NCBI GenBank assembly: GCA_000002435.2
Contig: CM018793.1
Origin: Giardia intestinalis
Lineage: Eukaryota
Strand: one strand, 5' to 3'
DNA length: 64,000 nucleotides
Position 1 is the stretch's first letter, and every line of letters starts with the position of its first letter. A program made the translations under genes and the position numbers. Below the pieces are notes generated by a model that was not told the DNA's origin, ran no database searches, and worked only from the letters and a program-made list of their open reading frames with translations. Positions 11,861 to 14,161 of this stretch are shown here, piece by piece.

Positions 11861-14161
11861 ATGGACGCAGCCGAGGGTATAACTTGGAAGCCACCGGTAT
11901 ACGCCTTCAAAAGAAAGAGCGATGAGCATAAAGGTCTAGGGTCATCATTGTTTCATTCTACTAAGCCCAACAGCAATATACCCAAAGTCAAAAACGCATC
12001 TAAAACGATGAATGGTATACGACGTGGCGAAGCACTAGCGTCTACAAATCAACACACTGTCTCTCCATACCGTCCGGGGTCTCCAGAAAGAGCCACTGCA
12101 AAATTTATGAAACCACACGGAACCCACCTTTTTTCGGAGGGTGGTAACCATGTAGATATCCCTACTGCTATTTACATTGATAGCTTTTCAGAAGTTCCAG
12201 TAGATCCACCAGCAAAACCTGTAGATACTGCAAAGAAAGCTGTACCTCTTTATTTACAACGTGTCGCATCACCCCAGATATACACTGGTGAGAAGTTCTC
12301 ACCTCGCCTGCAGGGCTCTCCACAACCCTATCCAAAACTGGAGGGAGCCCCCACTAAATGCATCAAGACACGGCACGATAAGCATGATAATCTCATATTT
12401 TCATCACCAACTCAGGATGAATTGCGAGAGCATGACATCGAGATGCATGCCGTAGAAGCAATCGAAAGTGCGTTGCACATAATTTCTCTATCCAATCAGC
12501 CTCTGCACCATAGTCTTCAAAATGAAAGTTCTAACTTTCTAGAACATCAGCGACCAGAGTGGCTCCCTTCCAAGTCTAACTCCTTTACAAACAATGCCTC
12601 ACCTGTGTCAGATGTCGGAATTTCATCAAGTGATACCTTGAGCTATCCCTTTATGGAATCTTTTGAAGAAGTAGTAGACCAGCCGTCGATCAACCCCATT
12701 GAAACGGTGAATAAAACTATGCAAACACATCCTCCTCAAGATCTGACCAAACCGCGCTACGCTCTTCTTACTACTTCATCGCAGATGCAACATACTCATA
12801 GTCACATATCTTACGCAACTCCACAACCACCTTTAGCCTCAGGTGAATTCACTGACGCAGAAACAAACACTTTTAAAGGGGTAGCTATTAATTCACCGAC
12901 GCTAGGTTCAATAGAACACAATCCTTGTAGTATTTTCTCTACTAGAAGCACGCAGACAGAAGTAGACAAGCGAAAACAAGACGATCAATTCACTACAGAG
13001 CACACTATTGAGTCAAAGGATTGGTCCAACAGTAATTTCTCATCCAAGCATCCCGTATCAGCTGAATCTACAAAGAATAGTGCTAGTAGTCACACTGATG
13101 TACCAGTAGTTGATGAGAATGCTGAGCCAGAGGAAAAGATGTCATCTTTCTGGGAGGATTTACCTGGGCTGACCACATACACAATTGACTCTCCGTTACA
13201 ACAAAGCGCCCACACATTCAGCTTGTCAGCGGATGAAGACCGTAATGGTATAGGTACTAACTTAAATAAACCGTCCTACTGTGCTATTGATTCATCATCA
13301 ACGCTCACAGCAAAAAAAGATTTGACAGATCGGCCATACAAGATAGAGCAACAAAAACCCGCCGCACATATCAGGGCAGCCAGTGAGGGAATAAGCTTGC
13401 CTCCTCCATGCTCTATTTTGGGTAAGATCAAGCCCTGTGATAATGAGGAGAAAAGCTGTGATCCATCCGATAGCATATCTGAAAATTCGAAGGAAGTATT
13501 TTGCAATGATGTAGCTCTATCTAACGGTATCGAGTCTGAAGTTTGTCACTCCAGTTGGGAAGAAAATTCAGAAGAAAATCCGTACCTCGCCGTGGGAGAG
13601 GCGTACCGGGACGAGGAGCACCACCGGGACCCGCTACCCGACCGGCCCCGGGAGCGCCTGTACCTCGCCGTGGGAGAGGCGTACCGGGACGAGGAGCACC
13701 ACCGGGACCCGCTACCCGACCGGCCCCGGGAGCGCCCGTACCTCGCCGTGGGAGAGGCGTACCGGGACGAGGAGCACCACCGGGACCCGCTACCCGACCG
13801 GCCCCGGGAGCGCCCGTACCTCGCCGTGGGAGAGGCGTACCGGGACGAGGAGCACCACCGGGACCCGCTACCCGACCGGCCCCGGGAGCGCCCGTACCTC
13901 GCCGTGGGAGAGGCGTACCGGGACGAGGAGCACCACCGGGACCCGCTACCCGACCGGCCCCGGGAGCGCCCGTACCTCGCCGTGGGAGAGGCGTACCGGG
14001 ACGAGGAGCACCATCTCATACATAATCCAAATGGAAAACGCGCAAAAAATCCCTATTGGGGAATAGGAGCCGCATTTTGGTCAGAGCCCTACCACATTCA
14101 GGCACGTATAGAATATATAGAGCTTAGACAGCAGGAAAGCATAACGCACAGGCTTAAGTAA
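11861..14161 (+). CDS. Hypothetical acidic protein containing a 26-aa tandem repeat (PYLAVGEAYRDEEHHRDPLPDRPRER, about 5.5 copies)
   Basis: The track ORF begins at 11819, but that codon is TTG. The first in-frame ATG is at 11861 (MDAAEG...). The long ORF runs through the 78-bp repeat array in frame. Confidence 0.55.
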   Translation: MDAAEGITWKPPVYAFKRKSDEHKGLGSSLFHSTKPNSNIPKVKNASKTMNGIRRGEALASTNQHTVSPYRPGSPERATAKFMKPHGTHLFSEGGNHVDIPTAIYIDSFSEVPVDPPAKPVDTAKKAVPLYLQRVASPQIYTGEKFSPRLQGSPQPYPKLEGAPTKCIKTRHDKHDNLIFSSPTQDELREHDIEMHAVEAIESALHIISLSNQPLHHSLQNESSNFLEHQRPEWLPSKSNSFTNNASPVSDVGISSSDTLSYPFMESFEEVVDQPSINPIETVNKTMQTHPPQDLTKPRYALLTTSSQMQHTHSHISYATPQPPLASGEFTDAETNTFKGVAINSPTLGSIEHNPCSIFSTRSTQTEVDKRKQDDQFTTEHTIESKDWSNSNFSSKHPVSAESTKNSASSHTDVPVVDENAEPEEKMSSFWEDLPGLTTYTIDSPLQQSAHTFSLSADEDRNGIGTNLNKPSYCAIDSSSTLTAKKDLTDRPYKIEQQKPAAHIRAASEGISLPPPCSILGKIKPCDNEEKSCDPSDSISENSKEVFCNDVALSNGIESEVCHSSWEENSEENPYLAVGEAYRDEEHHRDPLPDRPRERLYLAVGEAYRDEEHHRDPLPDRPRERPYLAVGEAYRDEEHHRDPLPDRPRERPYLAVGEAYRDEEHHRDPLPDRPRERPYLAVGEAYRDEEHHRDPLPDRPRERPYLAVGEAYRDEEHHLIHNPNGKRAKNPYWGIGAAFWSEPYHIQARIEYIELRQQESITHRLK
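13580..14013 (+). repeat. Perfect/near-perfect 78-bp tandem repeat array, about 5.5 copies, in-frame within the CDS
   Basis: The unit ccgtacctcgccgtgggagaggcgtaccgggacgaggagcaccaccgggacccgctacccgaccggccccgggagcgc is repeated head-to-tail. Copy 1 differs by a single C>T. The sixth copy is truncated after 44 nt. The array is GC-rich and stop-free in the other frames it covers, producing the artefactual ORFs 13543..14025(+) and 13546..14019(-). Confidence 0.9.

What the first reader, a model, noticed from the sequence alone, without database searches (positions are those of the whole stretch)
13580..14013. Near-perfect 78-bp coding tandem repeat (about 5.5 copies) that creates two artefactual ORFs
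Copies 2-5 are identical, copy 1 differs by one transition, and the last copy is truncated after 44 nt. This pattern indicates very recent expansion or ongoing concerted evolution. It encodes a charged 26-aa unit (PYLAVGEAYRDEEHHRDPLPDRPRER). Because the unit is GC-rich and stop-free in the other frames it covers, it generates a 160-aa poly-Pro/Arg/Gly ORF and a 157-aa antisense ORF that are almost certainly not genes. Copy number is a likely strain-typing polymorphism and a likely assembly-collapse hazard.
Basis: seen in the sequence. Interest (0 to 1): 0.55.

Follow-up and report, generated by a model that had tools for sequence, protein, structure and literature searches.

The report
Variable coding minisatellite in Giardia gene
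A real 78-bp in-frame tandem repeat in a Giardia-only gene of unknown function encodes a conserved 15-residue motif, changes copy number between isolates and collapses in short-read assemblies; it is an ordinary kind of feature, notable mainly for its extreme GC-richness.

Summary
TRF finds a 78-bp array of 5.6 copies at 13580-14013, 99% matching. The variant copy is copy 2, not copy 1. The window is Giardia intestinalis WB C6, and the array lies in frame in GL50803_00137720 (CDS 11861-14161), a predicted-disordered orphan protein.

The array is not young. It occurs at the same position in five lineages of the G. duodenalis complex. Units are almost identical within a genome but differ between lineages, which is concerted evolution. 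The 10-residue stretch GEAYRDEEHH never changes.

Copy number runs from 0.58 to 7.58 in public sequences. Three sequences with WB-identical flanks carry 7.58, 5.58 and 0.58 units, and 14 short-read contigs show the 0.58-unit collapse.

The 160-aa and 157-aa extra ORFs are by-products of composition. Shuffled units leave 4.6 of 6 frames open, the ORFs stay within 37 nt of the array, the forward one has no ATG, and both gain stops in other assemblages.

The array is 76% GC (GC3 0.92) in a gene with GC3 of about 0.37. The jump is confined to the homogenised units in every lineage. I infer GC-biased gene conversion, as has been proposed for Giardia rDNA. It is a new member of a known kind, of modest interest.

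The parts
11861..14161 (+). Host gene CDS, ATG to TAA: Giardia intestinalis WB GL50803_00137720 (XP_037902204.1), 766 aa, hypothetical protein
   Evidence: An exact-sequence look-up finds this protein under that name. Orthologues sit in conserved synteny in assemblages A2, E and B. Host-frame dN/dS is 0.31-0.35 in the N-flank and 0.03-0.16 in the C-flank between assemblages. There is no Pfam family and no homologue outside the G. duodenalis cluster among 1.84 billion representatives. The AlphaFold2 model has mean pLDDT 32.9 and is mostly coil.
13580..14013 (+). 78-bp tandem array of 5.56 units. Full units start at 13580, 13658, 13736, 13814 and 13892; the partial unit starts at 13970
   Evidence: TRF: period 78, 5.6 copies, 99% matches. 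Unit listing. GC 0.76 and GC3 0.92, against GC3 0.37-0.39 in the rest of the gene.
13659..13659 (+). The only variant base among the full units: C>T in unit 2 at a CpG, changing CCG Pro to CTG Leu
   Evidence: A UniParc protein with WB-identical flanks has the Leu variant at units 2, 4 and 7 of 7.58. The first unit of P15 carries the same CTG.
13580..13624 (+). Core motif of the unit (first 45 nt, PYLAVGEAYRDEEHH), repeated every 78 nt. This is the conserved part
   Evidence: The consensus core has no amino-acid change between assemblages A and B. pS is 0.20 against 0.53-0.57 in the flanks. GEAYRDEEHH is invariant in five lineages.
13625..13657 (+). Spacer of the unit (last 33 nt, RDPLPDRPRER), repeated every 78 nt. 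This is the variable Pro/Arg-rich linker
   Evidence: pN is 0.22-0.30 between assemblages. The sequence is RDPLPDRPRER in A, QAPLPVRPQEN in E and TAPLPSRPREN in B, with PLPxRPxE conserved.
13970..14014 (+). Terminal 'truncated' copy (15 codons), marking the edge of the homogenised tract
   Evidence: The array ends at the same position in A, E, B and lineage X. This copy differs from internal units almost only by G/C>A/T changes: 28 against 3 over six genomes, which are not independent.
14015..14050 (+). AT-rich 12-codon linker LIHNPNGKRAKN, probably the diverged spacer of an older unit
   Evidence: GC 0.33. Conserved as LI[HY][ND]PNG[KR]RAKN in all lineages where it is seen.
14051..14095 (+). 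PYWGIGAAFWSEPYH: a probable ancient, non-homogenised copy of the core motif, in register 27 codons after the start of the terminal copy
   Evidence: 6 of 15 residues match the WB core. By eye, 8 of 15 match the assemblage B terminal copy PYLAVGEAYRDEPYH, using the sequences. GC3 is 0.40-0.53, close to the gene background. Caveat: another 6-of-15 match occurs by chance or descent near residue 323.
14096..14158 (+). Conserved C-terminal tail (IQARIEYIELRQQESITHRLK), predicted helix
   Evidence: Invariant columns. Helix 743-765 has the highest pLDDT near the C-terminus, about 56-66. C-flank dN/dS is 0.03-0.16.
13543..14025 (+). 160-aa alternative-frame ORF (VPRRGRGVPGRGAPPGPATRPAPGAP repeated): a compositional by-product
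   Evidence: TTG start with no in-frame ATG. This frame has 2 stops in all three assemblage B arrays. Open frames are expected from composition.
13546..14019 (-). 157-aa antisense ORF (RSRGRSGSGSRWCSSSRYASPTARY repeated): a compositional by-product
   Evidence: Its ATG is the reverse complement of CAT at 14017-14019, just outside the array. This frame has stops in DHA2, P15 and all B arrays. Composition explains it.

Best explanation
The feature is a genuine in-frame coding minisatellite in the 3' part of the Giardia intestinalis WB gene GL50803_00137720.

Shown:
- The gene is real and under purifying selection in the host frame.
- The array sits at the orthologous position in five lineages of the G. 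duodenalis complex.
- Units are near-identical within a genome and carry lineage-specific differences between genomes, which is concerted evolution.
- Every length difference is a whole number of 26-codon units, so the frame is never broken.
- Each unit consists of a strongly conserved 15-residue core, PY[LAI][AD][VAI]GEAYRDEEHH, and a fast-evolving 11-residue Pro/Arg spacer.
- The 'truncated' last copy marks the edge of the homogenised tract. It is followed by an older diverged unit and a further degenerate copy of the motif.

Inferred mechanism at the DNA level:
- Replication slippage and unequal exchange add or remove whole units.
- Gene conversion within the array homogenises the units. 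The edges take part less and so drift.
- Because repair of conversion heteroduplexes favours G/C, synonymous sites inside the homogenised tract are driven to G/C (GC3 about 0.9). The rest of the gene, the terminal copy and the old degenerate copy stay at the AT-leaning background.

Inferred mechanism at the protein level: a disordered C-terminal tail displays a variable number of copies of one short linear motif, upstream of a conserved C-terminal helix. Copy number would then tune avidity for a partner that is not yet known.

The 160-aa and 157-aa ORFs are side effects of a 76% GC unit whose length is a multiple of three.
For: Array.

Identity of the gene.

Synteny and orthologues.

Purifying selection in the host frame: dN/dS is 0.31-0.35 in the N-flank and 0.03-0.16 in the C-flank.

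Concerted evolution: 0-2 variable columns within arrays, against 8-13 of 78 differences between assemblage consensus units. In lineage X the first unit and the terminal copy share the lineage-specific residues PYADIG.

Core conservation: no amino-acid change between the A and B consensus cores, while the whole protein is 56% identical. GEAYRDEEHH is invariant in five lineages.

Copy number: 0.58-7.58 units, always in steps of 26 aa.

Collapse. Contig breaks at the array.

GC confined to the homogenised tract: GC3 is 0.80-0.92 in the array against 0.34-0.39 in the flanks for A, E and B. It is 0.73 against 0.25 in lineage X and 0.88 against 0.34 in lineage Y. The terminal copy differs from internal units by 28 GC>AT against 3 AT>GC changes. 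In lineage X all five synonymous differences between the first unit and the terminal copy are G/C in the array and A/T at the edge (sequences). The old degenerate copy of the same motif in the same gene has GC3 of 0.40-0.53.

Precedent: Giardia rDNA, another concertedly evolving tandem array, is about 75% GC including its spacers, and GC-biased gene conversion has been proposed as a cause (PMC10123126).

Disorder: mean pLDDT 32.9, with the repeats modelled as coil.

Extra ORFs.
Against: The gene-conversion cause of the GC-richness is inferred, not shown.
- A second local GC3 island (0.86) near 28350-28550 in an amino-acid transporter gene has no repeat at all. GC3 spikes therefore arise in Giardia genes without tandem repetition.
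- Parsimony polarisation of the few spacer substitutions, done by eye on the units, gives 2 GC>AT and 2 AT>GC. That shows no net bias.
- The minor variants within arrays that change GC content are A or T alleles. That is close to what a 76% GC sequence gives under unbiased mutation, so it is not diagnostic.

The synonymous conservation of the core rests on about 10 synonymous sites.

The protein-level role is speculative. There is no homologue, domain or structure, and the disorder call rests on a 4-sequence alignment.

Copy numbers from 454 or short-read assemblies may be under-counts, so the true extent of polymorphism is uncertain. The two WB-flank versions (7.58 and 5.58 units) cannot both be the single true WB allele unless alleles or sublines differ.
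Confidence: 0.8

Rival explanations
1. The GC-richness is maintained by selection, not by biased gene conversion. Candidates are selection on codon choice for translation of the repeat, on mRNA or DNA structure, or on some DNA-level role of the array such as a recombination or chromatin signal.
For: High GC3 is conserved in the array in five lineages whatever the background. Synonymous divergence in the core is lower than in the flanks: pS 0.20 against 0.53-0.57. A non-repetitive GC3 island exists elsewhere in the window, so some force other than array homogenisation can raise GC3 locally.
Against: Selection linked to expression level should act across the whole gene, yet the same gene has GC3 of about 0.37, and the old degenerate copy of the same motif has 0.40-0.53. 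Neither strand folds better than its shuffles (z = +1.61 and +0.64). Rfam has no match. GC3 falls within a few codons at the edge of the homogenised tract, even though the encoded residues there are the same or similar.
Confidence: 0.25
2. The copy number in this window (5.56) is not the true, or not the only, WB value. The array may have been mis-assembled, or WB may carry alleles or sublines with different unit counts. In that case part of the apparent variation between isolates is technical.
For: A UniParc protein with flanks 100% identical to the window has 7.58 units and a different arrangement of the Leu variant, PLPLPPLP against PLPPPP. Short-read assemblies with identical flanks give 0.58 units. 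DHA2-type flanks occur with both 2.58 and 1.58 units.
Against: The window comes from the PacBio-based reference, whose reads should span a 434-nt array (PMC7000408). The origin of the 7.58-unit entry could not be verified here. It carries only a UniParc identifier, and calling it the older WB gene model is my inference.
Confidence: 0.35
3. One or both alternative-frame ORFs (13543-14025 on the + strand, 13546-14019 on the - strand) are real overlapping genes.
For: Both are open for about 160 codons in WB. The +1 and -2 frames are also open in every lineage.
Against: Open frames are the expected result at this composition: a mean of 4.6 of 6 in shuffles. The ORFs stay within 37 nt of the array. 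The forward ORF has no ATG. Both frames gain stops in other assemblages. In the core, most substitutions between assemblages are silent in the host frame and change the residue in the other frames. The host frame is continuous with 573 upstream and 48 downstream conserved codons.
Confidence: 0.02
4. The GC-rich block is foreign or mobile DNA inserted into an AT-leaning gene.
For: There is an abrupt jump from 43% to 76% GC exactly at the edges of the array.
Against: The array sits at the same position in five lineages and is under purifying selection in the host frame. The core motif resembles a downstream native, AT-leaning segment of the same protein. The back-translated core has 0 matches in 185,579 bacterial and archaeal genomes and the DNA core has 0 matches in JGI metagenomes. 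No other protein in 5.8 billion carries the repeat. There is no copy elsewhere in the window.
Confidence: 0.02

Closest known systems
Intragenic coding minisatellites (VNTRs) in surface or disordered proteins of microbial eukaryotes. Examples from general knowledge are yeast FLO/ALS adhesin repeats, Plasmodium antigen repeats and the Cryptosporidium MLVA loci; an MLVA scheme for C. parvum is described in PMC10665698.
   Same: Head-to-tail units whose length is a multiple of three. Whole units are gained and lost. Units are near-identical within a genome. Copy number differs between isolates. Short-read assemblies collapse the array.
   Different: The host protein has no predicted signal for surface exposure and no known function. 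The unit contains a core that is strictly conserved across deep lineages, so it is not a fast-evolving immunodominant repeat. The array also differs sharply in base composition from its own gene.
Giardia rDNA tandem array (about 75% GC including spacers; GC-biased gene conversion proposed, PMC10123126)
   Same: A tandem, concertedly evolving array in the same genome, with about 75% GC against a genome of roughly 47-49% GC. The same explanation may apply.
   Different: rDNA units are kilobases long, non-coding for protein and often subtelomeric. Here the unit is 78 bp, protein-coding and sits among housekeeping genes (ESF1 and Yip1). The GC bias shows mainly at synonymous sites.
Tandem repeats in Giardia variant-specific surface proteins and other cysteine-rich families (mentioned in PMC6868369, and bioRxiv 10.1101/2022.03.07.483299)
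   Same: Coding tandem repeats in Giardia that are known to hamper assembly.
   Different: This gene is not a VSP or cysteine-rich protein (no Pfam hit). It is single-copy and syntenic across assemblages, unlike the VSP genes, which lie at synteny breaks (PMC7000408).
Ankyrin-G anchor motif of vertebrate NaV and KCNQ2/3 channels (Pfam PF11956; for example VPIAAIESDLDN, PMC2597720)
   Same: A short P-hydrophobic-A-x-x-E outline followed by acidic residues. The WB repeat region scores 23.0 bits against a cut-off of 22.7.
   Different: The score comes only from adding up six near-identical weak matches, and no single stretch passes. The hit disappears with 0.58 or 1.58 units and with the full-length B and E orthologues. 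The ESD core of the published motif is absent. This is not a member, and the resemblance is treated as chance.

Membership tests
Coding minisatellite / VNTR | Head-to-tail units of roughly 10-100 bp with high identity between units | tested here: met
   Period 78, 5.6 copies, 99% matches, no indels. One variant base among 5 full units.
Coding minisatellite / VNTR | Unit length is a multiple of three and the array is in frame with a real gene | tested here: met
   78 nt = 26 codons. The frame is continuous with 573 upstream and 48 downstream codons that are conserved across assemblages, with dN/dS of 0.03-0.35.
Coding minisatellite / VNTR | Copy number varies among individuals or isolates | tested here: inconclusive
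   Public sequences carry 0.58-7.58 units in whole-unit steps. However, short-read collapse is demonstrated, and the 454-era assemblies may under-count. GS_B (5.58) against BAH15c1 (3.58), and the WB-flank 7.58 against 5.58, suggest real variation, but read-level data were not available.
Concerted evolution of a tandem array | Units are more alike within a genome than between orthologous arrays, with lineage-specific changes shared by all units | tested here: met
   0-2 variable columns within arrays, against 8-13 of 78 fixed differences between assemblage units. All five GS_B units share ACA GCC..TCG..AAC where WB has CGG GAC..GAC..CGC. Lineage X shares PYADIG between its first unit and its terminal copy.
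Concerted evolution of a tandem array | Edge units escape homogenisation | tested here: met
   The first unit of all three B arrays starts CCC where internal units have CCG. The terminal copy keeps its own 3' end: DEPYH in B, DELYH in E.
Tract shaped by GC-biased gene conversion | GC excess at synonymous sites, confined to the recombining or converting tract | tested here: met
   GC3 of 0.73-0.92 in units against 0.25-0.39 in flanks in five lineages. The terminal copy and the old degenerate copy are at or near background.
Tract shaped by GC-biased gene conversion | Excess of AT>GC fixations, with GC>AT variants kept at low frequency (polarised spectrum) | tested here: inconclusive
   There are too few events. 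The spacer gives 2 against 2 by parsimony (units). Within-array minor variants that change GC content are A/T alleles, which is close to the unbiased expectation at 76% GC.
Tract shaped by GC-biased gene conversion | The effect is general to converting sequences in the genome and absent from non-converting ones | tested here: inconclusive
   The rDNA precedent comes from the literature. However, a non-repetitive GC3 island exists at about 28350-28550. A genome-wide survey was not possible with the sequence held here.
Overlapping or alternative-frame gene | Open frame and encoded sequence conserved in relatives, beyond what composition gives | tested here: not met
   Both ORF frames acquire stops in other assemblages. 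Openness equals the shuffle expectation. The forward ORF has no ATG.
Pfam PF11956 (ankyrin-G binding motif of KCNQ2-3) | A single stretch reaching the family's gathering score | tested here: not met
   The 23.0 bits arise only from summing six copies, and 0 stretches pass on their own. There is no hit with 0.58 or 1.58 units, or with the full-length B and E orthologues.
Structured RNA element | A match to a known RNA family, or folding more stable than shuffles | tested here: not met
   Rfam: 0 matches at E<=1. Folding z = +1.61 on the sense strand and +0.64 on the antisense strand.

The most novel reading that the evidence does not exclude
The array may be a clean natural read-out of GC-biased gene conversion acting during (probably mitotic) recombination in Giardia, an organism for which sex has never been observed directly. 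Within one gene, and so at one expression level, copies of one motif that take part in array homogenisation sit at GC3 of about 0.9. Copies that have dropped out sit at the AT-leaning background. If this holds for Giardia tandem arrays in general, then local GC3 could be used to map where conversion is frequent in this genome. It would also account for the unusually GC-rich rDNA.
Probability: 0.4. Interest if true: 0.45.

Novelty: new member of a known kind. Interest (0 to 1): 0.3.

Why it matters
**Practical value.** The locus is a short, PCR-sized marker with 78-bp steps in a single-copy syntenic gene, and it is present across the G. duodenalis complex. No VNTR scheme for Giardia turned up in the literature search, whereas such schemes are in use for Cryptosporidium.

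**Annotation hazard.** Public entries for this one gene range from 645 to 818 aa for largely technical reasons. The repeat can also push a weak Pfam match over its cut-off purely by summation.

**Biological interest.** The array offers an internal control for what raises GC content in Giardia, and it marks a strictly conserved 10-15-residue motif in an otherwise fast-evolving orphan protein as the likely functional element. None of this overturns current understanding.

Tried and rejected
- **Function by homology.** Pfam on the full protein found nothing. A profile search of 1.84 billion representatives returned only the query's own cluster. PDB sequence searches with a profile and with the repeat region found nothing.
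- **Structure.** The AlphaFold2 model had mean pLDDT 32.9, so I ran no fold search, because matches to such a model would be meaningless.
- **Ankyrin-G anchor motif lead (PF11956) and DUF7304.** Both were rejected as summation artefacts.
- **RNA element.** Rfam and folding z-scores were negative.
- **Foreign origin.** The back-translated core gave no match in bacterial and archaeal genomes and the DNA core gave none in JGI metagenomes.
- **More natural alleles from JGI metagenomes.** The protein-guided scan found none.
- **Orthologue beyond the G. duodenalis complex by synteny.** The most distant ESF1-bearing contigs (L011 and L012, 34% identity) have an unrelated membrane protein upstream. 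No G. muris sequence was recovered, so the age of the array beyond the complex remains unknown.
- **Literature on the gene.** No paper text in the library mentions 137720 in a Giardia context. It is also absent from the supplements of two long-read Giardia papers, and the WB reference paper does not discuss this repeat.
- **'Degenerate seventh copy' from the WB sequence alone.** The 6-of-15 match is not secure, because an equal match occurs near residue 323. The case rests on the 8-of-15 match to the assemblage B terminal copy and on the register.
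Full report
**1. The observation**

Tandem Repeats Finder reports a single strong array at 13580..14013, with period 78, 5.6 copies, 99% matches, no indels and score 861. Listing the units shows that copies 1, 3, 4, 5 and the 44-nt partial copy 6 are identical. Copy 2 carries the only variant, 13659 C>T at a CpG, which changes Pro (CCG) to Leu (CTG).

A 41-nt piece of the unit occurs six times in the window and nowhere else. None of 100 shuffles gave any match. The two extra ORFs exist as described, at 13543..14025 (+, 160 aa) and 13546..14019 (-, 157 aa).

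It is 76% GC in a 47% GC window. It is the strongest GC outlier in the 64 kb: the 200-nt maximum is 0.78 (z = 7.2), against 0.66 for the next highest.

**2. What genome and what gene**

The neighbouring ORFs encode an ESF1 RRM domain and a Yip1 domain. Genes are packed with spacers of tens of bases and have no introns.

The long ORF that contains the array matches, residue for residue, GL50803_00137720 / XP_037902204.1 of Giardia intestinalis WB clone C6. It is a 766-aa hypothetical protein on a 4.0-Mb chromosome-scale record. The eukaryotic start is the ATG at 11861. The TTG at 11819 listed by the ORF tool is an artefact of bacterial start rules.

Orthologues lie in the same gene order in assemblage A2 (DHA2), E (P15) and B (GS_B, BAH15c1 and a metagenome contig). 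That order is a 303-aa gene and a roughly 400-aa gene on the minus strand, then the host gene, ESF1, and Yip1.

The gene is under purifying selection in the host frame, by Nei-Gojobori estimates:

| Region | dN/dS between assemblages |
|---|---|
| 573-codon N-flank | 0.31-0.35 |
| 48-codon C-flank | 0.03-0.16 |

Synonymous divergence between WB and GS is about 0.93-1.07.

No Pfam family matches. No solved structure is related. A profile search of 1.84 billion representative proteins returns only the query's own cluster. An AlphaFold2 model built on the four available sequences has mean pLDDT 32.9. It models the repeats as coil, and only helices 185-211 and 743-765 are moderately confident. This fits a largely disordered orphan protein, with the caveat that the alignment is shallow.

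**3. The array is old and evolves in concert**

The 26-residue unit is recognisable in every orthologue. The unit consensus in each assemblage is:

| Assemblage | Unit |
|---|---|
| A | PYLAVGEAYRDEEHH-RDPLPDRPRER |
| E | PYLAAGEAYRDEEHH-QAPLPVRPQEN |
| B | PYLAVGEAYRDEEHH-TAPLPSRPREN |

Within an array, 0-2 columns vary. Between assemblages, unit consensuses differ at 8-13 of 78 positions, and every unit of an array shares its lineage's changes. That is the pattern of concerted evolution.

Using the neighbouring genes as handles, I recovered two further lineages from public sequencing runs:

- **Lineage X (SRR17450160).** Its first unit has the core PYADIGEAYRDEEHH, and its terminal copy reads PYADIGEAYRDEPYH. 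The lineage-specific residues are therefore shared between copies.
- **Lineage Y (ERR3333378).** Its first unit has the core PYIDVGEAYRDEEHH.

The stretch GEAYRDEEHH is invariant in all five lineages.

The core shows no amino-acid change between the A and B consensus units, although the whole protein is only 56% identical. The spacer evolves quickly, with pN of 0.22-0.30, and keeps only PLPxRPxE.

The array ends at the same point wherever its 3' end is seen (A, E, B and lineage X), after 15 codons of a last copy. That copy is followed by LI[HY][ND]PNG[KR]RAKN and then PYWGIGAAFWSEPYH. In B and E the last copy ends DEPYH or DELYH. By eye, the B version matches PYWGIGAAFWSEPYH at 8 of 15 positions, and the two lie one period (27 codons) apart.

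I therefore read the 'truncation' as the edge of the homogenised tract. Beyond it lie an older diverged unit and a still older copy of the motif. With the WB sequence alone this similarity is only 6 of 15, and an equal match occurs near residue 323, so the point is suggestive and not secure.

**4. Copy number and assembly**

| Source | Units |
|---|---|
| UniParc entry with WB-identical flanks (P0005); probably the earlier WB gene model (my inference) | 7.58 |
| This window (WB 2020 reference) | 5.58 |
| GS_B | 5.58 |
| BAH15c1 | 3.58 |
| DHA2 | 2.58 |
| P15 | 2.58 |
| Metagenome and Logan contigs | 1.58 |
| Logan contigs | 0.58 |

Every difference is a whole number of 26-residue units.

Three sequences have flanks 100% identical to the window but carry 7.58, 5.58 and 0.58 units. 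The first residues of the units read PLPLPPLP in the 7.58-unit version and PLPPPP in the window.

The 0.58-unit version is encoded by 14 short-read Logan contigs. Four were shown, from four sequencing runs. The one compared at DNA level (L006) is identical to the window over 1,953 nt apart from the clean loss of five units. That is direct evidence of collapse.

In lineages X and Y the short-read contigs stop 45-48 nt into the array. In X the other side of the gap begins 7 nt before the terminal copy.

Polymorphism between isolates is likely, but it cannot be separated from technology here. The WB reference paper does not discuss this locus, and the gene ID is absent from the paper texts and supplements I could search.

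**5. The extra ORFs**

Inside the WB array five of six frames have no stop. A unit with this composition (A 0.17, C 0.40, G 0.37, T 0.06) has about a 78% chance per frame of being stop-free. Because 78 is a multiple of three, a frame that is open in one unit is open along the whole array. Shuffled units leave 4.6 of 6 frames open on average, against 1.3 at the flank composition.

- The two ORFs run only 6-37 nt past the array.
- The forward ORF starts at TTG and has no ATG in frame.
- The frame of the 160-aa ORF has stops in all three B arrays.
- The frame of the 157-aa ORF has stops in DHA2, P15 and B.
- In the conserved core, differences between assemblage consensus units fall at host-frame third positions (12, 18, 30), apart from one V>A change in P15.

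They are not genes.

**6. The GC-richness**

| Lineage | GC3 in array units | GC3 in gene background |
|---|---|---|
| A, E, B | 0.80-0.92 | 0.34-0.39 |
| X (first unit) | 0.73 | 0.25 |
| Y (first unit) | 0.88 | 0.34 |

The jump starts at the first codon of the first unit. It decays within the last few codons of the terminal copy, which differs from internal units by 28 G/C>A/T against 3 A/T>G/C changes over six genomes. Those genomes are not independent; I count roughly 15 against 1 by lineage.

In lineage X the first unit and the terminal copy encode almost the same peptide, yet all five synonymous differences are G/C in the array and A/T at the edge (sequences). The old degenerate copy of the motif, in the same gene, has GC3 of 0.40-0.53.

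High GC3 therefore tracks membership of the homogenised tract. It does not track the gene, the expression level or the peptide. No RNA explanation is supported: Rfam has no match, and both strands fold no better than their shuffles. A foreign origin is not supported either.

The most economical explanation is GC-biased repair during the gene conversion that homogenises the array. The same idea has been put forward for the Giardia rDNA array, which is about 75% GC including its spacers (PMC10123126).

This is an inference, and there are reasons for caution:

- A second GC3 island (0.86, at about 28350-28550 in an amino-acid transporter gene) has no repeat.
- The few substitutions I could polarise show no net bias.
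- The synonymous-site sample in the core is small.

**7. A lead that failed**

The WB repeat region scores 23.0 bits against Pfam PF11956, the ankyrin-G binding motif of KCNQ2/3 (cut-off 22.7), and 26.3 bits against DUF7304 (cut-off 27). No single stretch passes on its own. With 0.58 or 1.58 units, or with the full-length B and E orthologues, the hits vanish or fall far below the cut-off. The published anchor motif, for example VPIAAIESDLDN (PMC2597720), shares only a loose outline and has an ESD core that is missing here. The hit is a summation artefact of near-identical repeats, and is itself an annotation hazard.

**8. Verdict**

It is a new example of a well-known kind, an intragenic coding minisatellite. 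Three things make it mildly interesting:

- the strictly conserved core motif in an otherwise fast-evolving orphan protein;
- the array-limited GC3 spike, which may report biased gene conversion in Giardia;
- its possible use as a typing marker, since no Giardia VNTR scheme surfaced in the literature search.

Noticed in passing
window 28142-28675 (peak about 28350-28550), inside the gene 26962-29085 (-): This is the second-highest local GC and GC3 peak in the window: 200-nt GC 0.66 and 50-codon GC3 0.86. It lies in an amino-acid transporter gene (Pfam Aa_trans) and also creates a 177-aa alternative ORF. No tandem or dispersed repeat is present, so the cause of this GC3 island is unexplained. 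It is a caveat for linking GC3 spikes to repeats.
   Followed up: partly
window 11819 versus 11861; L003:3001, L004:2998, L005:2623: The deposited gene models for DHA2, GS_B and BAH15c1, and the Logan/ENA gene calls, start at a TTG 14 codons upstream (MRAIN...). The WB reference and P15 start at the ATG (MDAAEG...). This start-codon inconsistency adds 14 residues to several public entries.
   Followed up: yes
window 13659; P0005 units 2, 4 and 7; L001 first unit: The same CCG>CTG (Pro>Leu) change at a CpG appears in WB unit 2, in three units of the 7.58-unit WB-flank protein, and in the first unit of assemblage E isolate P15. It is either a recurrent CpG transition or a variant that conversion spreads and removes.
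   Followed up: partly
L010, L014 (SRR17450160) and L013 (ERR3333378): Two lineages of the G. duodenalis complex that are neither A, B nor E are present in public sequencing runs. Their neighbour proteins are 58-62% (396-aa gene) and 79% (ESF1) identical to WB. I could not determine which assemblages they are. Their contigs break at the array.
   Followed up: partly
window 17524-17531 and 52151-52191: Convergent genes overlap at their 3' ends by 8 nt (16842-17531 + with 17524-25347 -) and by 41 nt (51499-52191 + with 52151-60112 -). The host gene and its upstream neighbour share a 45-bp divergent intergenic region (11816-11860). This shows how compact the genome is.
   Followed up: no
window 13520-14158 (repeat region as protein): Near-identical repeats add up weak profile matches. 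The whole-sequence score for PF11956 exceeds the curated cut-off (23.0 against 22.7 bits) although no single stretch passes. The result depends on copy number, so automated annotation of different assemblies could differ.
   Followed up: yes
window 42565-42623 and 54953-54982: These are the only other tandem repeats in the window. One has period 27 with 2.2 copies at 72% matches; the other has period 15 with 2 exact copies and is AT-rich. Both are short and I did not examine them further.
   Followed up: no
L011:2355-3320 and L012:2-1012: A distant ESF1 homologue (34% identity, with the RRM_ESF1 domain but no NUC153 domain, as in Giardia) sits on metagenome and SRA contigs next to a multi-pass membrane protein with a Gln/Pro-rich tail. 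It is possibly another diplomonad or a related protist. It shows no synteny with the Giardia locus.
   Followed up: no
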